In this document: one piece after another, positions 5,815 to 63,912 of the stretch
Layout: the number at the start of each line of letters is the position of its first letter
Position numbering within the stretch: position 1 is the stretch's first letter
Source: a virus
Lineage: Duplodnaviria; Heunggongvirae; Uroviricota; Caudoviricetes
Reading direction: 5' to 3' (one strand)
Length of the DNA: 64,000 nt
IMG/VR virus record: IMGVR_UViG_3300002054_000021
Coordinates: 77,864-141,863 of that record
Made by a program: the position numbers and the translations under genes
Notes under the pieces: generated by a model
The model's input: the letters and a program-made list of their open reading frames with translations, nothing else
What the model was told of the DNA's origin: nothing
Database searches by the model: none

Positions 5815-6930
5815 ATGGCAGACTGTAATACATGCTTACCGTTAGAATGTCTTGTTAAGGTAGATATAGGCATTGAAAATGTCGTAGACCAAGCTGAGTT
5901 TAATTGCTTAGCTATCCTTACAGACAATCTTACAGGTGGTATAGGTGGGGCTGCATCTCCAGTTAATGCTGGCGATTGCGCTAAAGACTACGTGACTTTT
6001 GATGAAGTTGCTTCGGAATGGGACTCGACTAGTGATGTTTACGCTTCTGCTCAACATGCATTTGCTCAAACTCCGTCTGTAGCAATAGTTAAGGTTATGT
6101 ATGTGGATTTTGGGGCTAACATACAAAATCAACTAAACACCCTGTTTGAATGTGAAGTATGTCAAGGTATAGTGGCACCTTCTTTAAGGGATGACCCAAG
6201 AGTTCTTGAAATTGCTGATTGGGTCGAGGCTAGAGGTGGTAGTAACTTCTTCTTTACGGATAGTAATGATGAATTAACCTTGGATCAAAATGATGGTACA
6301 AGCATGGCCGCTATGTTTCAAGCTGCAGCTTACCAATATTCTGCAGTTTATTATCATTCCGATATTGATGAGCAATTTGCATCTGCAGCAATGTCATTTG
6401 GTCTGGGTCAAGACTTAGATTTAGTAGGATCTGCGTTCACAATGGCATTTAATGAGCTTGCTTTAGTTGCTCCAGACTTTGTCAGTAAATCTGAACTTGT
6501 CGCCATAACAGGGCATCTTCCAGCTACTGGATGTGGGCCACAATTTGGTAAATTCGCATCTTTATATGGGTGTGTAGGTGGTCAAAATATGATGCTTTAT
6601 GGCTCAATGGCAGACGGAAATTTCTTTGATACAGCGCTACTTAGAGAATATATGAAAGCTAGAATACAAGAAGGTGTATCTCAAGTATTTGTCAATGGGT
6701 CGGTTCCTCAAACTCAAGTTGGAGCTACAATTTTAGCCAACAATGTTGATTTTATATTGTCTCAATTTGAAGCTGCTGGATGGATAACAGAATACACAGT
6801 TCTTGCTCCAGTTGTGGCTAATTCCACCACCGCGACTAGAGCATGTAGAATACTTGAGTGTATTGAATGGGACGCAACATTAGCTGGAAGAGTGCATTCT
6901 ACTTGTGTTCTAGGCCGTCTGAACTTTTAG
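5815..6930 (+). CDS. putative tail sheath-like protein (synteny only)
   Basis: 371-aa ORF upstream of the tube, chaperone and tape measure genes. No motif support. Confidence 0.4.
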   Translation: MADCNTCLPLECLVKVDIGIENVVDQAEFNCLAILTDNLTGGIGGAASPVNAGDCAKDYVTFDEVASEWDSTSDVYASAQHAFAQTPSVAIVKVMYVDFGANIQNQLNTLFECEVCQGIVAPSLRDDPRVLEIADWVEARGGSNFFFTDSNDELTLDQNDGTSMAAMFQAAAYQYSAVYYHSDIDEQFASAAMSFGLGQDLDLVGSAFTMAFNELALVAPDFVSKSELVAITGHLPATGCGPQFGKFASLYGCVGGQNMMLYGSMADGNFFDTALLREYMKARIQEGVSQVFVNGSVPQTQVGATILANNVDFILSQFEAAGWITEYTVLAPVVANSTTATRACRILECIEWDATLAGRVHSTCVLGRLNF

Positions 6931-13872: not shown

Positions 13873-15597
13873 ATGGCTGGAGGATACGGCCTTACATCAA
13901 CAGGGTTTATAGTCCCTACCAGAGATGATATACTATTTGATGTAATTCAAGATATGCAAGCAACTTTTCCTCAATTATCTTTTGAGGACTCTAAAGTCGA
14001 AACTGCTATAGCTAATACTATAACAAATCAAGTCTATGAGGTTTGGTTGACAGTATTCGATATTTATAATTCTCAGAATCCAAATTTCGCATCTGGATGT
14101 AGGCTTGATATACTTGCTTCTAGATCTGGAATAACTAGGCAAATAGAAGAGGATGATGTAGCGCTAAGGTCAAGATTAATATCAACACAATCTTCTAGTG
14201 GGCAGCTTACTGGCAGCGATTGTTTTAATAAACTATTCTCTGATCTATCTGAAATATCTGATGTTCAGGAAATACAAATAAATCTAAATAGCACCTCCCA
14301 GCAAGAAGGTGTTCTCCCTCCAAACTCTTATGAGGTTATGGTTCTAGGTGGAAATCAAGAGGATGTTGCTAACGCCATATGGGACAATCATCCTGTAGGA
14401 ATAACTTTGTCGGGGAACACATCTGTCCAGATAACTGATTGTACAGGAGTTTGCAGAGATATATTCTTTACAAGACCAAAGCTTGTACCTATTTACTTAG
14501 ACATAAGAGTGATAAGAACGTCTACCAATTGTGGTTGCCCAACCGATGATACAACTATTATAGCTCAATCAATACAGGATTATATAGATTCTGAAGACGG
14601 AGTTTGTTTTACTCGAATAGGTCAGGCAATAAACTCTCAAGATTTCTTTAGGCCTGTATACGAGATACAAGGGCTTGGCGTTTCGTGCATAAAGATGTCA
14701 AGGGACGGTGGAATTGTAGATCAAGATTTAATAACCTTGAAAAGAGATGAGGTTCCATTCTTTTCTGCTGAATGTATAAATATAGAATTTACCTCAGAAG
14801 AAAATTCTCCATGCGTAACTGGTGAATATTTAACACCTCCAGAGGAATGTACTTTCACGCTAGATATAGTTAAAACAGCCGATACATCAGGAGTTAATAA
14901 TGTTGGGTCTATAATAAATTATACTTATGTGGTTACCAATAATGGAAGTGTGGACATAACTCAGGATATAATAATAACTGACGATAAAGCTACTGTGAAT
15001 TGTCCTGCGCTACCTACAGGATCGCTTGGCGCGGGAGAATCGGTGACATGTACATCATCTTATGAATTTACTTACGATGATGGTATAGCTGGAGGCGTAA
15101 CTAATAAAGCTCAAGCTGTAAGCGGAAATATATTTTCTCCTTGTGTGGAGCTTACAGTTCCATATACAGGTGATATACTGTTCCATCAAATGTTATTGGA
15201 GAAAGAATTAATAAGCGGCGAGTGTACCGCATTAGCTAATACATTGACTTATAGATATACAATTACTAATACAGGTACTGTTCCCATAACAGGACAGCCA
15301 ATAATAAACGATGACAGAATAGGTGGTATAATTTGTCCTCCGTTACCTGCGGATGGGTTACTTCCTAATCAGTCAATATTCGCTACTGCTGAATATTCGG
15401 TGACGCAAGCAGATCTTGACGCAGGTGAAGTTTGTAATTCTGCTAGAGCTATAGGCCAAACGCCTCTTGGCAATCTAATATCAAACCCAGTTACAGTTTG
15501 TGTGGATTGTATGGATAATGGAGGAGGCGGCGGCTTAAGTGCACCAAATATAACATGTCCACCAAATCAAGATTTAACTGTTGGAGTTGCTTTATAA
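13873..15597 (+). CDS. baseplate J-like protein with C-terminal DUF11-type repeats
   Basis: ATG at 13873 with GGGGG RBS. Repeats NVGSIINYTYVVTNNGSVDIT and LTYRYTITNTGTVPIT. Confidence 0.5.
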   Translation: MAGGYGLTSTGFIVPTRDDILFDVIQDMQATFPQLSFEDSKVETAIANTITNQVYEVWLTVFDIYNSQNPNFASGCRLDILASRSGITRQIEEDDVALRSRLISTQSSSGQLTGSDCFNKLFSDLSEISDVQEIQINLNSTSQQEGVLPPNSYEVMVLGGNQEDVANAIWDNHPVGITLSGNTSVQITDCTGVCRDIFFTRPKLVPIYLDIRVIRTSTNCGCPTDDTTIIAQSIQDYIDSEDGVCFTRIGQAINSQDFFRPVYEIQGLGVSCIKMSRDGGIVDQDLITLKRDEVPFFSAECINIEFTSEENSPCVTGEYLTPPEECTFTLDIVKTADTSGVNNVGSIINYTYVVTNNGSVDITQDIIITDDKATVNCPALPTGSLGAGESVTCTSSYEFTYDDGIAGGVTNKAQAVSGNIFSPCVELTVPYTGDILFHQMLLEKELISGECTALANTLTYRYTITNTGTVPITGQPIINDDRIGGIICPPLPADGLLPNQSIFATAEYSVTQADLDAGEVCNSARAIGQTPLGNLISNPVTVCVDCMDNGGGGGLSAPNITCPPNQDLTVGVAL

Positions 15598-27903: not shown

Positions 27904-28228
27904 AATGCCAAGTGCAGTTACACTAATAACTGATAATTCAGATAAAATTGACGTGGATAGATTTAGGAATAGGGTTCAAGATATGACTAAAGCATTCATG
28001 GATTTTACTGCTAATGAAATTGACGGTATAGAAGGTGCTGTAAATCTTGAAATGCCCCTTACCTTAGCTATGGCCCTAACGCATATAAACTCAATACCTT
28101 TAAGGCTTGGGATTAACGGCGCTAGTGATGATTTTGTTAAGGTTGTGAAGAATTCTATATTGGAAGCCGTTTCAGAAGATTTTGACATTTGCTTAGATAT
28201 GGCGAGACAGGATGTCTTGGATGGCTAG
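27896..28228 (+). CDS. hypothetical protein
   Basis: 110-aa ORF. Confidence 0.45.
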   Translation: MDRMPSAVTLITDNSDKIDVDRFRNRVQDMTKAFMDFTANEIDGIEGAVNLEMPLTLAMALTHINSIPLRLGINGASDDFVKVVKNSILEAVSEDFDICLDMARQDVLDG

Positions 28229-28583
28229 TTCTTATAAATTTATTTATCCTGAAAACTATTTTGGCGATAGGGAGTTTTTAAACGAGCAAGATTCTATACA
28301 CACAGGATCTGCCAAGGTTGGCATGTATGTGTCTAAAGTTAGAAAGAAAAAAGGTGACCCCAAATATCATAAACCTTTGACGATAGACGGCACTGTAGAA
28401 ATACGGGACTGTATTAAGAGGATAGATTTAATACTAGATGGCTCTACTTCAGATCAAGATGGGGCAGAAAAACTGCTTAACTCTAGAGACAAGCTTATAA
28501 GATTGATAGGCGTGTGTCAGACAGGCGTTGATGTTATAGAAAGTATGTTTAATCAAAGTAAATTTAAAAAAATGATAGAATAA
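28212..28583 (+). CDS. hypothetical protein
   Basis: 123-aa ORF. Confidence 0.45.
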   Translation: MSWMASSYKFIYPENYFGDREFLNEQDSIHTGSAKVGMYVSKVRKKKGDPKYHKPLTIDGTVEIRDCIKRIDLILDGSTSDQDGAEKLLNSRDKLIRLIGVCQTGVDVIESMFNQSKFKKMIE

Positions 28584-28595
28584 TTTTCGCATCTT
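28584..28595 (+). repeat. TTTTCGCATCTT motif copy
   Basis: Exact match, 27 nt upstream of the ATG at 28623. Confidence 0.6.
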
Positions 28596-28622
28596 TGCGC
28601 ACTAATATTTGTAGGCTTTATT

Positions 28623-39779: not shown

Positions 39780-39830
39780 TCCAGAGAAAGTATCAATACG
39801 AGTAAAGCTATCAGATAGACCAATAGATAA

Positions 39831-39842
39831 TTTTCGCATCTT
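39831..39842 (+). repeat. TTTTCGCATCTT motif copy
   Basis: Ends 5 nt before the ATG at 39848. No Shine-Dalgarno sequence. Confidence 0.6.
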
Positions 39843-39847
39843 TACAC

Positions 39848-40174
39848 ATGAATAACGTCATGAACATATACAGAGAAATATTGTGTGGAATAATGGATAA
39901 TAATGACGGCATTAATGATATGTGGGTGCAAGTCCATAAAAGTTTTTTTCTTATCCACCACGAACAAGGATACAAAGACGTAGCAATTAAAAGGCTCGAT
40001 CTCCCAATGAGAAATCAAATGCGTATTAAATTAGTCAATGGAGTTCCGTATAGGTCCAATTATATAATCTCTGATGACGGTGTAAAATTGTCTTCAAGAT
40101 CCATGCAGGAAGATGACATGGGGAAAATAGTTTCAATATCTTACAAGAAAATTGCTACTTCAAATGAAAAGTGA
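39848..40174 (+). CDS. DLW-motif family, paralogue 11
   Basis: N-terminus YREILCGIMDNNDGINDMWVQVH. Confidence 0.55.
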   Translation: MNNVMNIYREILCGIMDNNDGINDMWVQVHKSFFLIHHEQGYKDVAIKRLDLPMRNQMRIKLVNGVPYRSNYIISDDGVKLSSRSMQEDDMGKIVSISYKKIATSNEK

Positions 40175-46298: not shown

Positions 46299-46651
46299 AC
46301 TCCGAAAAGCTTAATACAATTAGGGATGAGCTTAATTTAAAAGACCTTATAAAGATATTTCCTGTTGGAGAACCTGCAAACTATATGCAATCTCTAATGT
46401 TAACTGTAAATTTAAAGAAATTTTTAGAATCAAAAGGCGTGAAGGTTAACGATATATTTTTCTGGGGTGGTAATTATGAAGTCTTAATTATAAGAATAGA
46501 TGATAGTTTTTTAATTGAATATGATCATGAGAGAGTGTGTTTGACATGGAGTTATAGTTATGATGCGATTAAAAAGATTTTAAGAGACTGTAAATCTGTT
46601 TATGAAACAGGATCTGTTATCCATGCTAAACTAGGACAAAAATGTATATAG
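46295..46651 (+). CDS. family-B small protein, paralogue 2
   Basis: Motif NYMQSLMLTVNLKKFLESKGVKVNDIFFW. Confidence 0.5.
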   Translation: MNSEKLNTIRDELNLKDLIKIFPVGEPANYMQSLMLTVNLKKFLESKGVKVNDIFFWGGNYEVLIIRIDDSFLIEYDHERVCLTWSYSYDAIKKILRDCKSVYETGSVIHAKLGQKCI

Positions 46652-47118
46652 ATAGCTCTAAGACAAAGAAAGCCACTGACCGTTGTCATAAATTTATCCT
46701 TAAATATTATGATAGGACAGCATTTGCGTTTAATTTTGATGATTATCGTATTGATACAAGTATGATAATTGATACAAGTATGATAAATAACAGAAAGATA
46801 ATAATTCCTAATTACACTCAAGCTCTTAAGTCGCTTTTATTTATTATGAATAAATTTGAAGAGCTGAACATGCCAGTTTATGATATAATATATGATATAG
46901 AGCATTATATAGTGGTTTGCTGTATTACCGAGCACGAGGGTATTTATCTATCTCTCACAAAAGAAAGAAGCCCAATGATGTATTTTAGCATATACAATCT
47001 GAATGAACTGGGCAGAAATATGTGGTTTAGATACCCTGAGCTTGAAATTGATGATGTAGTGGAGATGAAAGGTATAAATATTATAAATAAATTCGCATCT
47101 TCAGCCGTGTCCACTTGA
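46642..47118 (+). CDS. family-B small protein, paralogue 3
   Basis: Motif NYTQALKSLLFIMNKFEELNMPVYDIIY. Confidence 0.45.
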   Translation: MYIDSSKTKKATDRCHKFILKYYDRTAFAFNFDDYRIDTSMIIDTSMINNRKIIIPNYTQALKSLLFIMNKFEELNMPVYDIIYDIEHYIVVCCITEHEGIYLSLTKERSPMMYFSIYNLNELGRNMWFRYPELEIDDVVEMKGINIINKFASSAVST

Positions 47119-47154: not shown

Positions 47155-47418
47155 TTGGAGTCTATCATGTTACTATCTTTACTTTCTTTCATTTTCATCA
47201 TTGGCCTTATTTGGTTTGGTGCGGGTTACGTTGCTATTAAAATTGTTGTCAAATATGATGAAGACCCCATTGACCGTGATGATGTTAGGACTTTGCTCTT
47301 GCTTGGTATATTTTCATTGGCTCTAACAGTCTGGGAATATATTCTAAAGCTTGAATTTGAAAAGATTGTTGGCCGCGTACTTAATAAAGTTCAACCCACA
47401 GACAAAGAAGATAGATAA
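47155..47418 (+). CDS. small two-transmembrane protein, family C paralogue 1
   Basis: Tandem homologue of the gene at 47418. Confidence 0.5.
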   Translation: MESIMLLSLLSFIFIIGLIWFGAGYVAIKIVVKYDEDPIDRDDVRTLLLLGIFSLALTVWEYILKLEFEKIVGRVLNKVQPTDKEDR

Positions 47419-47699
47419 TGCTTAAGTCATTTATATCAGTTTTATTTGTATGCTTACTGTGCTGGGCTGCTTGTGGTTTTATCGCGTGTAAACTAGCCAC
47501 TATGAGTGGTAGGTATAGAATTGACAGGCAAGAGGCTAAATTTTTGCTGTCTTTGGGTCCGTTTGGTATATTTATAGCTTTGATCATAATGGCAGATATA
47601 GGTGATTTTAAATTTATTGGAGAATTTACTGACAGGATTGGCCAGAGGATTGCTGATGCAGTAAATAAGGATGAACCCCCTACTTCTGAGGATAAATAA
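47418..47699 (+). CDS. small two-transmembrane protein, family C paralogue 2
   Basis: Shares its transmembrane architecture, the R-D/E...LLSLG stretch and an acidic C-terminus with the gene at 47155. Confidence 0.5.
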   Translation: MLKSFISVLFVCLLCWAACGFIACKLATMSGRYRIDRQEAKFLLSLGPFGIFIALIIMADIGDFKFIGEFTDRIGQRIADAVNKDEPPTSEDK

Positions 47700-47711
47700 T
47701 TTTCGCATCTT
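47700..47711 (+). repeat. TTTTCGCATCTT motif copy
   Basis: 33 nt upstream of the ATG at 47745. Followed by CACCCGTCTCCATTTT. Confidence 0.6.
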
Positions 47712-47744
47712 CACCCGTCTCCATTTTTACACAAGAATTTTTAT

Positions 47745-47981
47745 ATGCTTAAAGGTGAATACAAGATAAAAAGATCCATTACTCTAGATAATGGTGACGA
47801 ATATGTCGGATATGTCTTTACTGATCAATATAGTTACGGCATAACTCTTGATATAGATAAAGCAACTATATATACTAAGCACCCTAAGGATATTTTTAGA
47901 GGATCAAAAACCCTGCATGGTTATATTAGCAAAAAGAACCCTCTTGTTAAAACAGAGAAGTATAGCTTTATTGCGCCATAA
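47745..47981 (+). CDS. hypothetical protein
   Basis: 78-aa ORF. Confidence 0.45.
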   Translation: MLKGEYKIKRSITLDNGDEYVGYVFTDQYSYGITLDIDKATIYTKHPKDIFRGSKTLHGYISKKNPLVKTEKYSFIAP

Positions 47982-47982
47982 A

Positions 47983-48023
47983 TTTTCGCATCTTCACGAG
48001 TCTAGTTACAATATTCGCATCTT
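47983..48023 (+). repeat. two TTTTCGCATCTT-type motif copies (47983-47994, 48013-48023)
   Basis: Tandem pair upstream of the ATG at 48039. Confidence 0.6.
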
Positions 48024-48038
48024 TAACAGGTTATTATT

Positions 48039-48545
48039 ATGGATATGAAATTAGATTTCTATATTAATAAAATTGGCAAAATACTCCCTATGCTGAAAGA
48101 CTTTCCAACAACTGGGAAGGTTGAGCGCAGTTATAAGGAGATGATCGAAACATCCATGATGGCAGAGAAGATATTTAAAGACTTGGGATATGATTACATA
48201 GATATTATAGACACTAAAGGCTCAGCTCTTATTTTATGTCACCTTGGCAACGGATTCTGCGTATCCATAAATACATCTGTTCAAACTAGAGTTATAATGG
48301 TTGTTTATCAATTTGACAGGCAGTGTGATTTGGATCACCTAAAGAAGATAAGTAGGCAGTCTTTCGGAATGTTAAATGGTAATGGTGACGTTATTAGGGT
48401 AACGGGTGGTTATAAATTTGATGGTGTTCATGAACCTATCATAAGGACTGCCCCTAGGGACGAATATGATGACCTTATAGAGGGTTATAATCGCAGACTG
48501 GATATAGAGTTGGACTTTCCTTTAGACTGGGATGCCCCTCTATAA
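48039..48545 (+). CDS. hypothetical protein
   Basis: 168-aa ORF. Confidence 0.5.
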   Translation: MDMKLDFYINKIGKILPMLKDFPTTGKVERSYKEMIETSMMAEKIFKDLGYDYIDIIDTKGSALILCHLGNGFCVSINTSVQTRVIMVVYQFDRQCDLDHLKKISRQSFGMLNGNGDVIRVTGGYKFDGVHEPIIRTAPRDEYDDLIEGYNRRLDIELDFPLDWDAPL

Positions 48546-48557
48546 TTTTCGCATCTT
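48546..48557 (+). repeat. TTTTCGCATCTT motif copy
   Basis: Followed by GACATGTCTCCATTTT, the same extension as the copy at 47700. Confidence 0.6.
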
Positions 48558-48680
48558 GACATGTCTCCATTTTCATATAAAGATATAATATCTGAGCAAA
48601 GGGTTCGACTCCCTTATTGGTGAACAATACATGTTAAGTAACTTATTCGACTTAAGGCGAAGTTGTGGAACTGCTCAGTT

Positions 48681-48728
48681 TTTTCGCATCTTCAACCGTG
48701 TCTAGTTTTCGCATCTTCAACCGTGTCT
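48681..48728 (+). repeat. tandem direct repeat 2 x TTTTCGCATCTTCAACCGTGTCT, then T8
   Basis: Two 23-nt units at 48681 and 48706. Confidence 0.65.
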
Positions 48729-48960
48729 GTTTTTTTTGAAAAAAGTGAGGCTCGAACAAGAATACATGAACGAGCCTCTGGCCCGTTTTGAGAAAACGCA
48801 ATTAGGGCCAATAATTTATATAGGGATAATTTTGTGATTTGTCAAGATGGAGCGAGTGACAAGAAAAACTAATGACTAAAAAACCTGCCACTCGCTGTCA
48901 CCATCTGTGCGACACTATATATAACCACAAAAAAAATTTGAAGTCAATGCAAAATAACTG

Positions 48961-48989
48961 TTGACGTATTATTTTATTTTTGTTATGAA
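48961..48989 (+). promoter_or_regulatory. sigma70-like promoter TTGACG-17-TATGAA for infC
   Basis: Lies 47 nt upstream of the IF3 start. Confidence 0.4.
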
Positions 48990-49035
48990 TGAGTCGTTCA
49001 ATAAAGAAAAGGTAAAACATGTTGAAAGTAAAACG

Positions 49036-49518
49036 ATGAGCAAGCCGCTTATTAATGAGATGATTACGGCGCGGGAAGTGTTGTTAATTCAAGAAGATGG
49101 TAAAAGCGATGGGGTGTGCTCTATCTTAGACGCATTAGAATATGCTAAAAGTGTCGAGTTAGATCTTGTTCAAGTGAACAATAACGCAACCCCTACATGC
49201 CGAGTTATGGATTATTCTCGCAAAAGCTTTCAGAAGAAGAAAAACAAAGGTGGTGGCCGCAAAATTAAATTGAAAGAAATTAAACTGCGTCCTAATATCT
49301 CTCAACATGATCTAGACACTAAGTTTAGAAGCATGGATAAGTTTTTCAGTAAGGGAGACCGTGTTAAAATTAGCGTTCAGTTCCGTGGCCGTGAAATATC
49401 TCATATCGAAAAAGGCAATGAGCTTATTGAAAAAATAAAAGAGAGATTCTCTGAAATCAATATTCATGCCGACTCTAAGCGTGATGGAAAAACTATCACA
49501 ATGGTTCTATCTCCATAG
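49036..49518 (+). CDS. infC: translation initiation factor IF-3 homologue
   Basis: INEMITAREV, CRVMDY and IKLKEIKLRP...VQFRGREISH...TITMVLSP align with the N- and C-domains of bacterial IF3. ATG at 49036 is the first in-frame ATG after the promoter. The track's 48961 start includes the promoter. Confidence 0.7.
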   Translation: MSKPLINEMITAREVLLIQEDGKSDGVCSILDALEYAKSVELDLVQVNNNATPTCRVMDYSRKSFQKKKNKGGGRKIKLKEIKLRPNISQHDLDTKFRSMDKFFSKGDRVKISVQFRGREISHIEKGNELIEKIKERFSEINIHADSKRDGKTITMVLSP

Positions 49519-50019: not shown

Positions 50020-50073
50020 ATAATTACATATGAAAAAATATTTATCACTTGACAAACTTTTTTATTTTTCTTG

Positions 50074-51580: not shown

Positions 51581-51627
51581 AATTTCTTGCGGGTAGTTTT
51601 CAAACTTTCCAGTACCGCAAGCGATAG

Positions 51628-52650: not shown

Positions 52651-53253
52651 TTAAAAAAACATACCGTTTATTTTTATTTGCTCATGATCTTCACATCTGT
52701 AATAATCTTTATTTGAAACAGAATATATTCTGGAAGTCAATGTAGCAATATTAATACCTTCTGCTTCTGCTGCAAGTCTTATTGTTTTGAATTTTCCATA
52801 GGGAGTTATGACAGGGTTTCTGTTCTGCTTAGATCTTCTCCCTTTTTTAGATACTCCAGTCATCCACCTGTTAATCGTCCCTTTAGATAAACCTAAATCC
52901 TTAGCTGCGGCTTTCTGTGATATATATGTGACTCCGTTTATAGTACATTCTTTATTGGTGCCGCTTAATTCTGGAGTTAAGCAACCTTTACCACCGCAAA
53001 CTTTATTATAACAGTCCTCTTGATTAACAACATTTTGAGTTACGATCTTGGACTCATATTTATAGGCGTCGTCAGCATTATCAAACTCAGATAATATTTT
53101 CATATGAAAATTTTCTTTACCGTATTCTTTTAATGCTTTTTTGAAATCTTTACCACTACCCAGATACGTGCACGGAGAGCAGTTACAAGAATGCTTTCCA
53201 ATATAGTATTTACCATTGACAAGGTTAGTAGTTTTATAGACAATATGTTTCAT
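52651..53253 (-). CDS. GIY-YIG homing endonuclease with IENR/NUMOD-type C-terminal DNA-binding helices
   Basis: N-terminus KTTNLVNGKYYIGKHS...YLGSG. GGGGAA RBS. Paralogue of the gene at 63181. Confidence 0.65.
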   Translation of the reverse strand: MKHIVYKTTNLVNGKYYIGKHSCNCSPCTYLGSGKDFKKALKEYGKENFHMKILSEFDNADDAYKYESKIVTQNVVNQEDCYNKVCGGKGCLTPELSGTNKECTINGVTYISQKAAAKDLGLSKGTINRWMTGVSKKGRRSKQNRNPVITPYGKFKTIRLAAEAEGINIATLTSRIYSVSNKDYYRCEDHEQIKINGMFF

Positions 53254-54796: not shown

Positions 54797-55057
54797 ATGA
54801 AAGTCTCAGAACTAATAAAAAAATTGAGTGGTCTTGATGGAGACCTTCCAGTTATAATGTCGAGAGACCCAGAGGGCAATGGATTCTCAAAACTTGCAAG
54901 TGACGGCATTACTGTTTACATGGCGGATGTGACTGATAACTTTATTGATGAAGTTAAAATATGTGAGATAACGGATCAACATAGAAAAATTGGTTACACT
55001 GATGAAGATGTGGGAGACCCAGAGACTATGACAAAATGTCTAGTACTTTGGCCATAA
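54797..55057 (+). CDS. hypothetical protein
   Basis: 86-aa ORF. Confidence 0.45.
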   Translation: MKVSELIKKLSGLDGDLPVIMSRDPEGNGFSKLASDGITVYMADVTDNFIDEVKICEITDQHRKIGYTDEDVGDPETMTKCLVLWP

Positions 55058-55092
55058 TTTTCGCATCTTTATATATGCATGATTCGCATCTT
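55058..55092 (+). repeat. two TTTTCGCATCTT-type motif copies (55058-55069, 55082-55092)
   Basis: Upstream of AGGAG and the ATG at 55106. Confidence 0.6.
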
Positions 55093-55105
55093 TAGGAGAC
55101 GTATA

Positions 55106-55348
55106 ATGAACGCCTTTAAAAAACTTATAGATAAAAATTTAACAATAACAAAGCGTGAAAACTTTGAAAAAATGGTGGAGTTCGCCGTACATGAGAAGCA
55201 ATTATCTGAAATTAAAGGCGACTACGTACTGCACAATGTGTTCCTTGTTAGTGAAGATCAGTATATTTATATAAGCGATTCTTTAAGCCATCTTTTAACG
55301 TTTGCTGATTTAACTTATGATGAAAACGGTATACACATAGGAGAGTGA
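55106..55348 (+). CDS. hypothetical protein
   Basis: ATG after AGGAGAC. The track's 55079 start would translate the motif repeat. Confidence 0.5.
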   Translation: MNAFKKLIDKNLTITKRENFEKMVEFAVHEKQLSEIKGDYVLHNVFLVSEDQYIYISDSLSHLLTFADLTYDENGIHIGE

Positions 55349-58759: not shown

Positions 58760-58860
58760 TAGAACATCGTCACCGAGAGGATTTGTTACCCTTGAAGACG
58801 TGACGGCACAGAGGGGCGGTGTCTAGGTTTAATCGCCATGTTGGATACTGCCCCTTGAAA

Positions 58861-58872
58861 TTTTCGCATCTT
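58861..58872 (+). repeat. TTTTCGCATCTT motif copy
   Basis: 28 nt upstream of the ATG at 58901. Confidence 0.6.
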
Positions 58873-58900
58873 TACAGGTGCGCACATATGGAGAAGTGAA

Positions 58901-59898: not shown

Positions 59899-59929
59899 AT
59901 AAAAAATGCATTATTTTTGCTTTTTATTG

Positions 59930-59958
59930 TTGACACCTAGGATTTATTATTCTATAAA
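59930..59958 (+). promoter_or_regulatory. promoter TTGACA-17-TATAAA
   Basis: Best-fitting consensus promoter in the window. No ORF follows it. Confidence 0.55.
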
Positions 59959-59963
59959 ATGAA

Positions 59964-60078
59964 CATCGGCAAAGTCCTCCCCTGATTAGCCGATCCGCGA
60001 TCCCCGACCTCCCCTTTGGGTTGATCGCACACCTTGGCTCCTTCTGGCTCCCCCTTTGCCAGTTGGGGCCATTTTTTT
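59964..60078 (+). ncRNA. candidate small non-coding RNA 1 (about 114 nt)
   Basis: Promoter, then a C/U-rich GC-enriched segment with no ORF, then a hairpin plus T7 terminator at 60047-60078. Confidence 0.4.
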
Positions 60079-60081
60079 ACA

Positions 60082-60110
60082 TTGACTAAAGGTTAATAAA
60101 ATTGTATATA
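60082..60110 (+). promoter_or_regulatory. promoter TTGACT-17-TATATA
   Basis: Sits immediately after the terminator of candidate sRNA 1. Confidence 0.5.
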
Positions 60111-60116
60111 TAAGAT

Positions 60117-60266
60117 CCAGTCACACTCCATGCACAGCTTTATGTTAGAGAGGCTTGCAAGAGACTATGATGCTACTTCGTGTCTGGAAGTTGGTTATGG
60201 CCATTTGGGAAGTGAATAGTCTCAATCTAACGTAAACTAGGTCGCTCTTTGAGCGGCCTTTTTTAT
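60117..60266 (+). ncRNA. candidate small non-coding RNA 2 (about 150 nt)
   Basis: Only a 29-codon ORF without RBS. Ends at the GGTCGCTC-TTTG-AGCGGCC plus T6 terminator at 60240-60266. Confidence 0.4.
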
Positions 60267-62046: not shown

Positions 62047-62565
62047 TTGAGTTCAAAGATAAAATTAGAATATCCATATAATCAAGATTGGAAATGGGGA
62101 TACCTAACTGAAAAAACAACTGGGCGCGATAAGGGCCGCAAGAATATAAGCTTAGTAAATTCTCGCAATAATAGAAGTAGCGTTAGTTACGCTCGTTATT
62201 TAATGTCTGTTCATTTAGGTAGATATCTTACAGATGATGAGCATGTAGATCATATCAATGAAGACAAAGCAGATGATAGAATGGACAACTATCAGATACT
62301 AACTAATGCTGAAAATACCAAAAAGTCACAAGCATTTGCAATTTATGTTGATTTGAAATGTCCTCAATGTGAAAGTAGATTTCTAAGAAGGCGCAAACAC
62401 ACTCACTTATGCGTTAAGAAAAAATTTGTTGATTTCTGCTCTAGAAGCTGTTCTTCAAAGTACTATTCTAGAAAAGACAAAATTAAGTTTACAGAAGAGA
62501 ATAGTAATGCTATAAGTGAAGTCATACTTCATGTGAATGAAGTGGAAGATTATGTATTTGATTAA
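62047..62565 (+). CDS. HNH homing endonuclease
   Basis: Motif HVDHINEDKADDRMDNYQILTNAEN. GAGGTGG RBS. Abuts the tRNA-Met gene. Confidence 0.6.
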   Translation: MSSKIKLEYPYNQDWKWGYLTEKTTGRDKGRKNISLVNSRNNRSSVSYARYLMSVHLGRYLTDDEHVDHINEDKADDRMDNYQILTNAENTKKSQAFAIYVDLKCPQCESRFLRRRKHTHLCVKKKFVDFCSRSCSSKYYSRKDKIKFTEENSNAISEVILHVNEVEDYVFD

Positions 62566-62578
62566 TTTAGGGCGTGAA

Positions 62579-62650
62579 GCTAAACGGTTAAGCCACCTCC
62601 TCATAAGAGGTTGATAGTAGGTTCGATTCCTACCGCGCCTACCAAATTTC
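62579..62650 (+). tRNA. tRNA with CAT anticodon (Met or Ile-lysidine)
   Basis: Acceptor GGGCGTG/CGCGCCT, anticodon stem ACCTC/GAGGT, loop CTCATAA, T-arm GTAGG-TTCGATT-CCTAC, encoded CCA. Confidence 0.7.
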
Positions 62651-62654
62651 GCAT

Positions 62655-62703
62655 CTTTATACGCATCTTCATACATATACACTTTTCGCATCTTCACATG
62701 TAA
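62655..62703 (+). repeat. three TTTCGCATCTT-type copies (62655, 62670, 62692) plus a degenerate fourth at 62756
   Basis: Lies between two tRNA genes. No + strand ORF downstream. Confidence 0.6.
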
Positions 62704-62783
62704 AGAAACTTAAATATTCTTTGCATGATTGTCTAATATGTAAATATTTTTCGCATTTTCATAAGTATTAATGAACGCGCCTA

Positions 62784-62856
62784 GCAGGATGGTGAGAATC
62801 GAACTCACGAAATTCGGGTTCTAAGCCCGACGACCTTCCAACAGATCAACATCCAC
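62784..62856 (-). tRNA. tRNA-like gene, anticodon TAG (Leu-type) but type-I short variable loop and mismatched 1-72 and 2-71 pairs
   Basis: Reverse-complement fold: U8, G18G19, anticodon stem TCGGG/CCCGA, loop CTTAGAA, T-arm GTGAG-TTCGATT-CTCAC. Acceptor GTGGATG versus CATCCTG. Confidence 0.45.
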
Positions 62857-63180
62857 TAACGAATTCGGAAGCTATCCGTATAAGTTAGCTGCTAGACTGA
62901 ACTACGCTAGGATCAGCTTAATCCTTGGCATAGAACCGATGTCTTAGTATTATCATCTGTTTATTATGTCAAGTACTAACTTATTTTTTATTTTTCTATA
63001 TCACTATTGACTCACGTCTTATTTTATGGTATACAATAATTATCATTGGGTTCATTTGCCCCGATTACTAAATGTTTGTTAAATGCAGACAACGATAATT
63101 TCGCTCCTGTAGCGGTTGCTATCGCGGCTTAGTCCACGAAAAGCTGAGTTGGTTCAATCTGACTTGGAAACAGAATTAAA

Positions 63181-63912
63181 TTAGAGTGTAGCGTTCTTCG
63201 CTACACTTTCATTTTTGATTTTAGGTACTCTTCCAGAATTTACACACTTTACTATAGTTGTGCGGTGAACTTGAAAATATTCAGCAGCCTCTTTTGTTGA
63301 TTTAAATAAAATTCCACCTAAGGTGAAATTCTTCATATTTTTCCTAAGGTAATTTGATCTTCCATTATTTTTTGCCCATCTTTTAATTGTGTTAGTGCTA
63401 ACCTTAAAATGCCTAGCGGCATCGCTATAAGATTTAAATACAATACTATCTATCACAACTTGTATAGCGTCCTTACCTCCCTTTTTTAAAGAAAGTGATT
63501 TTCCTCCTTTAGATATCCATCTCGCTATAGTTTTATTACTGACACAAAAATGTCTAGCGGCGGCTCCGTATGACTTAAAATATATGTCATCTATAGTACA
63601 TCCTATAGACCTCCTGCTTTCATTAACGTAGCAACCCTTGCCTCCGTTTATCCCGTTGTAACATTCATTTGAATCTATCATCTCTTTAGTTATAATATCG
63701 GACTCGTATTGGTAAGCCTCTTCTTCTGTCTCAAAATGCAATAAGACTTCTTTGCAAAAGTTATGCTCTCCGTATTTTTCTATTGCTTTCAATAAAGCAT
63801 AACCAGACCCTAAGTACGAACATTGATCCCCGCACCTATTAGAACAAGAATGCTTTCCAATATAGTATTTACCATTGACCAAGTTAGTAGTTTTATATAC
63901 TGTATGTTTCAT
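63181..63912 (-). CDS. GIY-YIG homing endonuclease with three or four IENR/NUMOD repeats
   Basis: N-terminus MKHTVYKTTNLVNGKYYIGKHS. GGGG RBS. Upstream cassette is shared with the gene at 52651. Confidence 0.65.
   Translation of the reverse strand: MKHTVYKTTNLVNGKYYIGKHSCSNRCGDQCSYLGSGYALLKAIEKYGEHNFCKEVLLHFETEEEAYQYESDIITKEMIDSNECYNGINGGKGCYVNESRRSIGCTIDDIYFKSYGAAARHFCVSNKTIARWISKGGKSLSLKKGGKDAIQVVIDSIVFKSYSDAARHFKVSTNTIKRWAKNNGRSNYLRKNMKNFTLGGILFKSTKEAAEYFQVHRTTIVKCVNSGRVPKIKNESVAKNATL

What the first reader, a model, noticed from the sequence alone, without database searches (positions are those of the whole stretch)
47700..48728. Oriented TTTTCGCATCTT(nAC) element repeated at least 14 times, densest at 47.7-48.7 kb
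Copies of the core TTTTCGCATCTT lie at 28584, 39831, 47700, 47983, 48013, 48546, 48681, 48706, 55058, 55082, 58861, 62655, 62670 (partial) and 62692. All are on the + strand, like the genes. Most sit 5-45 nt upstream of a start codon. In one case (39848) they leave 5 nt and no Shine-Dalgarno sequence. Several are tandemly duplicated (47983/48013, 48681/48706, 55058/55082, and 62655/62692 with the partial 62670 copy between them). Extended versions share more sequence: TTTTCGCATCTT-CACCCGTCTCCATTTT, TTTTCGCATCTT-GACATGTCTCCATTTT, and 2 x TTTTCGCATCTTCAACCGTGTCT. It does not resemble a sigma70 -35/-10 pair. It fits a promoter for a phage-modified or phage-encoded transcription apparatus (middle or late class), an operator for a phage regulator, or iterons. 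The copies at 62655-62703 have no downstream + strand ORF and lie between tRNAs, so a pure gene-start signal does not explain all sites.
Basis: seen in the sequence. Interest (0 to 1): 0.75.

Follow-up and report, generated by a model that had tools for sequence, protein, structure and literature searches.

The report
Phage-specific promoter-like motif, second class
An uncultured 208-kb phage carries about 30 copies per 93 kb of a 21-base, one-strand-only signal between its genes; it most likely marks start sites for a phage-controlled class of transcription, which is a normal kind of phage feature, though this sequence is new and the protein that reads it is unknown.

Summary
TTTTCGCATCTT occurs 10 times exactly and its core CGCATCTT 17 times in the window. 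All copies are on the + strand, against fewer than 1 expected.

Joining neighbouring contig pieces gave 93 kb of the same ~208-kb uncultured myophage. That stretch holds 31 + strand cores and 1 - strand core, and 26 of the 31 lie outside genes.

The conserved block is a contiguous 21 nt, AATTTTCGCATCTTYAnnYRT. It has no conserved upstream element, no sigma70-type -10 at any fixed spacing and no RNA fold.

Position 18 is a purine in 24 of 25 sites and usually follows a pyrimidine. No start codon lies upstream of it, and one ATG begins exactly there.

I also found a separate, conserved sigma70-type early promoter class (AT-rich UP element, GTTGAC, TGn) in the same region. The motif therefore marks a second class.

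The best reading (about 0.55) is a core promoter for phage-redirected or phage-encoded RNA polymerase, probably middle class rather than late. The main rival (about 0.2) is a stoperator-like, oriented regulator site.

No sigma, activator or polymerase gene was found, and no relative carries the motif. I rate it a new member of a known kind, of moderate interest.

The parts
28582..28602 (+). Motif copy with exact 12-mer at 28584. It starts right after the TAA stop of gene 28221-28583. The ATG of the Metallophos gene (28623) is 22 nt after the predicted start. A TGCGCA palindrome sits at motif positions 13-18.
39829..39849 (+). Motif copy with exact 12-mer at 39831. Motif position 18 is the A of the ATG of ORF 39848-40174, so a leaderless mRNA is predicted.
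47088..47108 (+). Motif copy AATTCGCATCTT at 47090, inside the last 29 nt of gene 46642-47118 and 60 nt upstream of gene 47167.
47698..47718 (+). Motif copy with exact 12-mer at 47700, abutting the TAA stop of gene 47418-47699. Gene 47745 starts 28 nt after the predicted start.
47981..48001 (+). Motif copy with exact 12-mer at 47983, 1 nt after the stop of gene 47745-47981. It is the first of a pair spaced 29 nt apart.
48010..48030 (+). Motif copy TATTCGCATCTT at 48012, the second of the pair. The predicted start is 10 nt before the ATG at 48039.
48544..48564 (+). Motif copy with exact 12-mer at 48546, abutting the TAA stop of gene 48039-48545. It opens the 439-nt ORF-free stretch 48546-48984 upstream of the phage IF3 gene.
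48679..48724 (+). Two tandem copies (48681 and 48706) of the 25-nt unit TTTTCGCATCTTCAACCGTGTCT(A/G), followed by a structured ORF-free stretch.
55056..55099 (+). Pair of copies: an exact one at 55058 abutting the TAA stop of gene 54797-55057, and GATTCGCATCTT at 55081. They lie upstream of gene 55106-55348, two genes before rIIA.
58859..58879 (+). Motif copy with exact 12-mer at 58861, downstream of rIIB. Gene 58901 starts 23 nt after the predicted start and has a GGAG Shine-Dalgarno sequence. It belongs to the subclass with the palindrome TGCGCA at positions 19-24.
62644..62766 (+). Array of four copies (62646, 62658, 62683 exact, 62748 variant TTTTCGCATTTT). It begins 1 nt after tRNA-Met and opens the ORF-free stretch 62646-63180.
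6549..6569 (+). Intragenic copy AATTCGCATCTTTA at 6551 inside the tail-sheath gene. It scores 21 bits on the matrix and may be an internal site. Weaker intragenic matches at 14084, 20453 and 24584 score 9-13 bits and are doubtful.

Best explanation
The element is the core promoter of a phage-specific transcription class in an uncultured ~208-kb myophage. It is a contiguous, asymmetric ~21-nt sequence, A-A-T-T-T-T-C-G-C-A-T-C-T-T-Y-A-n-n-Y-R-T.

I infer that RNA polymerase starts at the purine at motif position 18. The polymerase would be either the host core enzyme redirected by an unidentified phage sigma-like factor or activator, or a phage-encoded polymerase. That start puts the invariant CGCATCTT at about -13 to -6 and the AT-rich tract at about -19 to -14. 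No -35 element is needed.

This class works alongside a separate set of sigma70-type early promoters (UP element, GTTGAC, TGn) in the same region. It is therefore most likely a middle, or otherwise phage-controlled, class. Single copies serve protein genes through leaders of 0-60 nt. Tandem arrays of 2-4 copies open ORF-free regulatory hubs.

Shown by the analysis: the enrichment, strand bias, intergenic placement, motif boundaries, the pyrimidine-purine step, the distances to start codons, the lack of -35/-10 partners, the lack of an RNA fold, and the second promoter class. Inferred: promoter function, the start site, the timing class and the reading factor.
For: - Enrichment and polarity. 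The window has 10 exact 12-mers against 0.02 expected. In 93 kb there are 31 + strand and 1 - strand copies of CGCATCTT, against 0.66 and 1.5 expected. Matrix hits of at least 8 bits number 35 on + and 0 on -.
- Placement. 26 of 31 cores lie outside called genes, although only 12.8% of the DNA is intergenic (P = 5e-19).
- Motif shape. Conservation starts abruptly at position -1 and ends at position 19. Nothing upstream is conserved, and the block holds 27 bits.
- Start-site signature. Position 17 is a pyrimidine in 20 of 25 sites, and position 18 is a purine in 24 of 25.
- Gene starts. Called start codons lie 0, 8, 10, 22, 23, 28, 29, 31, 39, 43 and 60 nt after position 18 and never before it. 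The ATG of ORF 39848 begins exactly at position 18.
- Compact intergenic spaces. Whole intergenic spaces of 39-57 nt hold only the motif plus a leader of normal length, and the motif often starts on the upstream TAA stop.
- Selection within arrays. Positions 3-12 are 98% identical between copies, but positions 20-31 are only 38% identical. The element is therefore conserved by selection, not by recent duplication.
- A distinct early class exists. Thirteen or more copies of AATTTTTATTTTTCTT-GTTGAC(T/A)-N14-TGn, most with a shared leader, lie in the same region, so the motif is a different class.
- No RNA role. There is no consensus RNA secondary structure.
- Terminator followed by motif. At 69509 the motif directly follows an intrinsic-terminator-like hairpin and precedes an early promoter, as tandem promoters of two classes would.
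Against: - No sigma, MotA/AsiA-like, gp55-like or RNA polymerase gene was detected. I scanned 50 ORFs with PHROGs and read the precomputed Pfam calls for 93 kb.
- The nearest relatives are about 30% identical in rIIA and lack the motif, so conservation across relatives cannot be checked.
- Array spacings of 12-33 nt are too tight for several multisubunit polymerases at once. They look like arrays of protein-binding sites.
- The second copies at 48012 and 55081 would give leaders of 8-10 nt. The predicted start at 55081 falls inside the Shine-Dalgarno sequence.
- Placement right after stop codons, combined with strict orientation, equally fits an elongation roadblock.
- There are no transcript data.
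Confidence: 0.55

Rival explanations
1. Stoperator-like site. On this reading the motif is an asymmetric binding site for a phage regulator, possibly a monomer. The bound protein blocks or gates elongating RNA polymerase in an orientation-dependent way, or modulates adjacent early promoters. This would resemble the L5-type repressor sites of Cluster A mycobacteriophages.
For: - The formal features match those reported for L5: more than twenty asymmetric 13-mers, short intergenic spaces, and orientation tied to the direction of transcription (PMC9283540).
- Six or seven copies abut the upstream stop codon.
- Arrays spaced 22-33 nt suit cooperative protein binding.
- The copy at -9282 lies just downstream of a sigma70-like promoter, and 69509 lies just upstream of an early promoter's UP element.
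Against: - Most single copies sit directly upstream of genes that have no other recognisable promoter between motif and start codon, so a block there would silence them.
- No copy overlaps the -35 or -10 of the 13 early promoters.
- A well-matched copy lies inside the essential sheath gene.
- No integrase or repressor was seen in 93 kb. The only hint is a weak resolvase-type HTH protein.
- The conserved pyrimidine-purine step and the rule that start codons never precede position 18 are left unexplained.
Confidence: 0.2
2. Replication or partition iterons. A weaker version is that only the tandem arrays act as origins, with a promoter-driven R-loop next to an AT-rich unwinding region.
For: - Arrays of 3-4 direct repeats are spaced 22, 31 or 33 nt, roughly whole helical turns.
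- The array at 73462-73559 is followed by about 300 nt of AT-rich DNA with inverted repeats.
- From my own knowledge: the T7 primary origin and T4 oriF/oriG each combine phage promoters with an unwinding element.
Against: - Copies are spread over at least 90 kb as six arrays plus about 12 singles, not gathered at one locus.
- Singles sit at fixed short distances from start codons.
- Other spacings (12, 23, 25, 29 nt) are not in helical phase.
Confidence: 0.07
3. RNA-level signal acting within the transcripts: an endonuclease processing site, a translational operator or enhancer, or a hairpin-independent termination or pause signal.
For: - The motif is strand-specific and lies in transcribed intergenic spaces.
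- It is U- and C-rich and G-poor.
- From my own knowledge: the CATCT part is reminiscent of the T7 class II pause signal ATCTGTT.
Against: - There is no conserved secondary structure.
- The distance to the start codon ranges from 5 to more than 400 nt, and several copies have no downstream ORF, which argues against a translational role.
- The information content of 27 bits is far above that of known RNase sites.
- Tandem arrays are not expected for processing sites.
Confidence: 0.07
4. A strand-specific mark on the DNA that is unrelated to transcription. Candidates are programmed single-strand nick sites (as in T5, tf or phiKMV-like phages), or recombination or homing hot spots spread together with mobile cassettes.
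For: - All copies are on one strand.
- Homing endonuclease genes lie nearby: GIY-YIG at 52651-53253, an I-TevI-like gene at 63181-63912 and an HNH gene at 62047-62565.
- The region is a mosaic of small ORFs.
Against: - Such sites have no reason to avoid coding sequence or to keep set distances to start codons.
- The flanks of the copies are unrelated, so the motif did not spread as part of a larger cassette.
- Only one array adjoins a homing endonuclease gene.
Confidence: 0.05

Closest known systems
T4 middle promoters (MotA box plus sigma70 -10, sigma appropriation)
   Same: - Both are a second, phage-controlled class interspersed with very strong UP/-35/TGn early promoters.
- Both sit upstream of rII-region genes, tRNAs and recombination genes.
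- The 3' half of the motif, CTT(C/T)A, matches the MotA-box centre CTT(t/c)a (PMC2988021).
   Different: - T4 middle promoters need an excellent -10 element 11-13 bp after the box. Here only 3 of 25 sites have even nAnnnT there, against about 7 of 25 expected by chance.
- A start site about 40 nt into the motif numbering would lie beyond several start codons.
- The core here is invariant, whereas MotA boxes tolerate changes.
- No MotA or AsiA homologue was found.
T7-type single-subunit RNA polymerase promoters
   Same: - Both are contiguous ~20-bp asymmetric elements with an AT-rich 5' part, an invariant specificity block, a (C/T)A-rich stretch and then a purine start.
- Both have information far above what is needed to find the sites (27 bits).
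- Both occur in tandem, follow stop codons, and coexist with sigma70-type early promoters. The T7 architecture is from my own knowledge.
   Different: - There is no sequence similarity to T7, T3 or SP6 promoters.
- No single-subunit polymerase gene appears in the 93 kb examined.
- The element is nearly absent from the structural module, whereas T7 class III promoters drive structural genes.
T4 late promoters (TATAAATA read by gp55/gp33)
   Same: With the start at position 18, the geometry is the same: one short invariant element at about -13 to -6 and no -35 (geometry from my own knowledge).
   Different: - The sequence is different.
- TATAAATA itself is not enriched: 11 copies against about 9.5 expected.
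- The motif is rare among tail and lysis genes.
- No gp55 or gp33 homologue was found.
Stoperators of Cluster A mycobacteriophages (L5 gp71-type repressor sites)
   Same: Both are more than 20 asymmetric sites, lie in short intergenic spaces often at gene ends, and have orientation locked to the direction of transcription (PMC9283540).
   Different: - Stoperators belong to temperate phages with an identified repressor, and one copy is the operator of the early lytic promoter. Here no repressor, integrase or promoter-overlapping copy was found.
- This motif is longer (21 against 13 nt) and ends in a start-site-like pyrimidine-purine step.
Start-associated sequences (SAS) of Cluster K mycobacteriophages
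   Same: Both are conserved oriented 13-mers just upstream of a subset of start codons (from my own knowledge).
   Different: SAS lie at a nearly fixed 3-8 nt from the start codon and include the ribosome-binding site. Here the distance ranges from 5 to more than 400 nt, and several copies have no ORF downstream.

Membership tests
sigma70 -35/-10 promoter (TTCGCA taken as the -35 element) | A -10 hexamer (TAnnnT) 16-18 bp downstream of the -35-like hexamer | tested here: not met
   Hexamers starting at motif positions 25-27 fit nAnnnT in 4, 0 and 1 of 25 sites, against a background of 10.6% per position. The generic promoter scan found no enrichment over shuffles, 81 against 72.9.
T4 MotA-dependent middle promoter | A good sigma70 -10 element 11-13 bp downstream of the box | tested here: not met
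   Only 3 of 25 sites have nAnnnT starting at positions 26-28, against about 7 of 25 expected by chance. The requirement is stated in PMC2988021.
T4 MotA-dependent middle promoter | A MotA-box sequence (a/t)(a/t)TGCTT(t/c)a | tested here: inconclusive
   The motif shares CTT(C/T)A but has GCAT in place of wwTG.
T4 MotA-dependent middle promoter | MotA and AsiA homologues encoded by the phage | tested here: inconclusive
   There were no such PHROG hits in 50 ORFs scanned and no Pfam hints in 93 kb. About 115 kb of the genome was not seen.
T4 late promoter (gp55 class) | Association with late structural genes | tested here: not met
   The roughly 30 kb of tail, baseplate and lysis genes (-9.7 to 20 kb) hold one intergenic copy (-9282) and one good intragenic copy (6551). 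The 47-83 kb stretch holds 24.
T4 late promoter (gp55 class) | A single short element centred near -10 with no -35 | not testable with these tools
   The geometry fits if the start is at position 18, but the start site is inferred, not measured.
T7-type single-subunit RNA polymerase promoter | A contiguous, highly conserved ~20-bp asymmetric element ending at a purine start | tested here: met
   The block is 21 nt and 27 bits, with an invariant 8-mer and a purine at position 18 in 24 of 25 sites.
T7-type single-subunit RNA polymerase promoter | A phage-encoded single-subunit RNA polymerase gene | tested here: inconclusive
   No RNA_pol Pfam hit appears among the called genes of 93 kb. The rest of the genome was unavailable.
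Stoperator (Cluster A mycobacteriophage repressor sites) | Many asymmetric sites in short intergenic spaces, oriented with transcription | tested here: met
   31 + strand against 1 - strand cores, and 26 of 31 intergenic. The definition is from PMC9283540.
Stoperator (Cluster A mycobacteriophage repressor sites) | A cognate immunity repressor, and a copy acting as operator at the early lytic promoter | tested here: inconclusive
   No repressor or integrase was found in 93 kb. No copy overlaps the -35 or -10 of the 13 early promoters; the nearest, 69509, ends about 25 nt upstream of a -35.
Replication iterons | Direct repeats clustered at one origin locus | tested here: not met
   There are six arrays and about 12 singles spread over more than 90 kb.
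Structured RNA element | Conserved base pairing across copies | tested here: not met
   RNAalifold on 16 copies predicts 0 pairs. There are no Rfam matches at the sites.

The most novel reading that the evidence does not exclude
The 21-mer is read by a transcription protein of a kind not yet recognisable by sequence. This could be a phage sigma or activator, or a polymerase, that recognises a T7-like contiguous promoter. The phage otherwise starts infection from T4-like sigma70 early promoters. On this reading the phased 3-4-copy arrays at the head of ORF-free hubs also act as transcription-primed replication origins, and at least one transcript (ORF 39848) is leaderless in a phage that carries its own IF3.
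Probability: 0.12. Interest if true: 0.7.

Novelty: new member of a known kind. Interest (0 to 1): 0.4.

Why it matters
If it is a promoter class, the motif gives a ready map of one temporal transcription programme in a deeply divergent, uncultured ~208-kb phage whose genes are mostly orphans. It also gives a 21-nt bait for DNA pull-down or DAP-seq to find the factor that reads it, which may be a new type of sigma, activator or polymerase. Together with the sigma70-type early promoters found here, it splits the small-gene region into units that can be tested directly. A highly specific, compact promoter could also be useful as an orthogonal expression part. If it turns out to be a stoperator-like roadblock instead, that regulatory principle would extend beyond temperate actinobacteriophages.

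Tried and rejected
- Motif searches in public collections. A 14-mer scan of IMG/VR returned only single chance matches. Tandem-pair patterns in IMG/VR and in the metagenome collection returned coding tandem repeats and unrelated DNA. The phage's own contig is not in those collections.
- Similarity to known phages. Megablast against GenBank phages found nothing. tblastn with the tape measure, RecA-like and sheath proteins found only 25-30% matches.
- A search for related loci with the 523-aa protein found nothing.
- Relatives via rIIA. The best non-self hits are about 30% identical. Their loci L162-L166 have neither this motif nor any comparably repeated one, so comparison across relatives was impossible.
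- Population variation. All overlapping assemblies are identical.
- Looking for the reading factor. PHROG scans of 50 ORFs gave no transcription factor.
- Genome walking. One downstream step worked.
- Rejected readings. These were a sigma70 promoter with TTCGCA as the -35 and a MotA-type box plus -10, an RNA hairpin, a shared ncRNA in the ORF-free hubs, which have only the two promoter elements in common, and T4-type TATAAATA late promoters, which are not enriched.
- Literature. The motif string occurs only in unrelated primers and guide sequences, and the sample identifiers were not found.
Full report
**Observation**

The 12-mer TTTTCGCATCTT occurs 10 times in the window, always on the + strand, against 0.02 expected from shuffles. 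The 9-mer TTCGCATCT occurs 17 times on + and 0 on -, against 0.68 expected. It is by far the most repeated 9-mer in the window. With up to two mismatches, the only excess over chance comes from this family.

The 62.6-kb copies are about 9 nt off; the true positions are 62646, 62658 and 62683. The copies listed as 48013 and 55082 are one- and two-mismatch variants at 48012 and 55081.

**Source and context**

The window is part of a ~208-kb contig assembled independently three times (ENA ERZ27298441 k119_147156, ERZ23497532 scaffold_15 and Logan SRR4188651_26). The assemblies are identical wherever they overlap.

It is a contractile-tailed phage. It encodes a sheath, tape measure and baseplate, rIIA/rIIB, Rad52 and RecA-like recombinases, GapR, an IF3 gene, tRNAs and free-standing homing endonucleases. 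No GenBank phage is close.

By joining neighbouring loci I obtained window coordinates -9728 to 83456, 93,185 bp in total. Nearly all genes in this stretch are on the + strand.

**Anatomy of the motif**

In the 93 kb, the core CGCATCTT occurs 31 times on + and once on -, against 0.66 and 1.5 expected. Of the 31, 26 lie outside called genes, although only 12.8% of the DNA is intergenic (binomial P = 5e-19).

I aligned 25 sites. The result is a contiguous block from position -1 to position 19, counting the first T of the 12-mer as position 1:
- Consensus: a-a-T-T-T-T-C-G-C-A-T-C-T-T-c/t-A-n-n-C/t-G/a-T.
- CGCATCTT is invariant.
- There is no conservation at all upstream, so no -35-like partner exists.
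- Nothing is consistently conserved beyond position 19.
- Position 17 is a pyrimidine in 20 of 25 sites, and position 18 is a purine in 24 of 25.

A matrix built from 28 sites holds 27 bits. It gives 35 hits of at least 8 bits on the + strand and none on the - strand. There is a gap between family members (15-34 bits) and the rest.

A subclass of four sites carries the palindrome TGCGCA at positions 19-24, and a fifth site carries it at positions 13-18. That accounts for 5 of the 17 copies of this hexamer in 93 kb.

**Position relative to genes**

- Stop codons. Six copies start 0-1 nt after, or overlap, the upstream TAA stop codon, which supplies the preferred AA. At 39831 the TAA before the motif is not a stop codon of any sizeable ORF, so the AA preference belongs to the motif itself.
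- Start codons. For the 11 copies directly upstream of a gene, the called start codon lies 0, 8, 10, 22, 23, 28, 29, 31, 39, 43 or 60 nt after position 18 and never before it. The ATG of ORF 39848 begins exactly at position 18.
- Small intergenic spaces. Whole intergenic spaces of 39-57 nt (28584, 47700, 47983, 55058) contain nothing but the motif and a leader of ordinary length.
- Arrays. The remaining copies form tandem arrays with spacings of 33/33/31, 33/33, 22/33, 12/25, 25, 29 and 23 nt.
- ORF-free stretches. The larger arrays head ORF-free stretches of 350-520 nt at 48546, 62646, 64986, 73457 and 81039, and single copies bracket a sixth at 69348-69853. These stretches share only this motif and the early-promoter element described below.
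- Selection on each copy. Between copies in an array, positions 3-12 are 98% identical but positions 20-31 only 38%. Each copy is therefore kept by selection rather than by recent duplication.

**A second promoter class**

K-mer enrichment in intergenic DNA revealed a second repeated element. It consists of an AT-rich UP-like tract AATTTTTATTTTTCTT, then GTTGAC(T/A), about 14 nt, TGn and an A-rich -10 region. In most copies the leader (G)AATCAACAAAAC(G/A)AAAAGGAA follows, just before the ATG.

Copies lie at 50073, 51160, 51688, 53377, 55454, about 59345, 59929, 60274, 64312, 66042, 69551, 70046, 73862, 74844, 76530 and 80428. Some directly follow intrinsic terminators at 51626 and 60239.

This matches the description of T4 early promoters as UP/-35/TGn/-10 promoters read by unmodified host sigma70 polymerase (PMC2988021). 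The phage therefore starts on host polymerase, and TTTTCGCATCTT marks a different class.

**Tests of specific models**

- Sigma70 promoter with TTCGCA as the -35. No -10 is enriched at a 16-18-bp spacing, and the generic scan is at shuffle level. Rejected.
- T4 MotA-type promoter. The 3' half CTT(C/T)A resembles the MotA-box centre. But the -10 element that T4 middle promoters strictly require 11-13 bp downstream is found in 3 of 25 sites against about 7 expected by chance. A start that far downstream would also lie beyond several start codons. Membership not met.
- RNA element. RNAalifold finds no shared pairs, and there are no Rfam hits. Rejected.
- Late class. The 30-kb tail and lysis module has only one intergenic copy, and TATAAATA is at chance level. 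Unlikely.
- Iterons. The copies are dispersed, not at one locus. Unlikely as the general role.

**Most likely mechanism**

The features most economically describe a core promoter that spans about -19 to +2. These features are the sharp 5' boundary, the lack of any upstream partner, the terminal pyrimidine-purine step, the rule that no start codon precedes position 18, normal leader lengths from that point, strict co-orientation with genes, and coexistence with a host-type early class.

With initiation at position 18, the invariant 8-mer sits at about -13 to -6. That is the geometry of T4 late promoters, and the overall layout resembles T7-type promoters: an AT-rich tract, a specificity block, a (C/T)A-rich stretch and a purine start. 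Both comparisons rest on my own knowledge of those systems.

The motif's location suggests a middle, or otherwise phage-timed, class. It lies among small early-region genes, around rIIA/rIIB, next to tRNAs and ahead of a recombination/nuclease block at 28.6 kb. This parallels what T4 middle promoters serve. At 69509 a terminator-like hairpin, the motif and an early promoter follow one another ahead of a strongly structured ORF-free stretch (z = -5.4), as tandem promoters of two classes would.

**Weaknesses**

- No sigma, activator or polymerase gene was found in 50 ORFs scanned with PHROGs, nor in the precomputed Pfam calls for 93 kb. About 115 kb of the genome could not be reached.
- The nearest relatives are about 30% identical in rIIA and lack the motif. 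The motif was not found in any related phage in IMG/VR or the metagenome collection.
- Array spacings of 12-33 nt suit binding-protein arrays better than several multisubunit polymerases at once.
- The second copies at 48012 and 55081 would give very short leaders.
- The formal features also match Cluster A mycobacteriophage stoperators: more than 20 asymmetric sites, short intergenic spaces and orientation tied to transcription (PMC9283540).

I therefore put the promoter reading at about 0.55 and an oriented roadblock or operator at about 0.2. Origin or iteron, RNA-level and nick or recombination readings each get 0.05-0.07.

**Novelty and verdict**

Conserved, oriented intergenic motifs that define a phage-specific transcription class are a well-known kind of feature. 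This sequence is new, belongs to a lineage with no close relatives, and fails the membership tests for the sigma70, MotA-type and gp55-type classes. Its reader is unknown.

I rate it a new member of a known kind, with interest 0.4. The most novel reading still open (probability about 0.12) is a T7-like contiguous promoter read by an unrecognised phage factor or polymerase, with the arrays doubling as transcription-primed origins.

Noticed in passing
window 50073, 51160, 51688, 53377, 55454, ~59345, 59929, 60274 (also 64312, 66042, 69551, 70046, 73862, 74844, 76530, 80428 in L121/L255): A second, highly conserved promoter class: AATTTTTATTTTTCTT-GTTGAC(T/A)-N14-TGn plus an A-rich -10 region that lacks the usual final T. 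Most copies are followed by a shared leader, AATCAACAAAAC(G/A)AAAAGGAA, before the ATG. Some sit right after intrinsic terminators (51626, 60239), which resembles T4 early promoters and PeSL cassettes.
   Followed up: partly
window 48985-49518: The phage encodes a translation initiation factor IF3 (Pfam IF3_N and IF3_C). It is preceded by a 439-nt ORF-free stretch that holds three motif copies and strong hairpins (48723-48960, z = -4.4). The IF3 is 33-40% identical to IF3 genes in various phage records.
   Followed up: partly
L121 4113-4335 (- strand of the locus) = window coordinates 69578-69800, outside the window: A roughly 220-nt ORF-free transcript candidate downstream of early promoter 69551. 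It is closed by a long stem (CUAUUUUCCGAAAGGG...CCCUUUCGGAAAAUAG), with MFE -74.9 and z = -5.4. It has no Rfam match and may be a phage ncRNA.
   Followed up: partly
window 59929-60262: A roughly 300-nt ORF-free unit with its own early promoter (TTGACA-19-TAAAAT) and an intrinsic terminator at 60239-60259 (z = -2.8 on the + strand). It is a second ncRNA candidate.
   Followed up: partly
window 52651-53253 (-), 62047-62565 (+), 62784-62856 (-), 63181-63912 (-): Free-standing homing endonuclease genes: SegE-like GIY-YIG, HNH, and one with an I-TevI-like DNA-binding domain. Two of them are among the very few - strand genes. A tRNA-Leu(tag) also lies on the - strand just downstream of the I-TevI-like gene, as if both were inserted together.
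   Followed up: no
window 28596, 58879; also -9264, 69527, 69826 outside the window: The palindrome TGCGCA, often as TGCGCAA, sits at motif positions 19-24 in four sites and at positions 13-18 in one. That is 5 of the 17 copies of this hexamer in 93 kb. It may be a second regulator site or a conserved transcript start.
   Followed up: partly
window 48598-48620: A tRNA T-arm-like fragment (AAGGGTTCGACTCCCTT) lies 40 nt after motif copy 48546. Neither ARAGORN nor Rfam calls a tRNA there, so it may be a decayed tRNA.
   Followed up: no
L255 18287-18306 and 18387-18407 = window coordinates ~81161 and ~81262: Two copies of the palindrome ATAGGAAT(A/T)TATACCTAT, 100 nt apart, lie in the ORF-free hub that follows the motif array at 81068-81134. 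They look like operator sites.
   Followed up: no
L121 2210-2286 (-) = window coordinates ~71627-71703: ARAGORN reports a tRNA with a four-base anticodon (gatt). Rfam's tRNA model does not reach its threshold there, so the call is doubtful.
   Followed up: partly
L162-L166 (relatives found via rIIA): Distant relatives (about 30% identical in rIIA) share the order rIIA-rIIB-GP88-KTSC-HTH-SNF2 helicase-exonuclease-DNA polymerase A. Two of them come from the same samples as this phage. L164 has a repeated palindrome, GTTTACCAAGGTAAAC, present three times.
   Followed up: no
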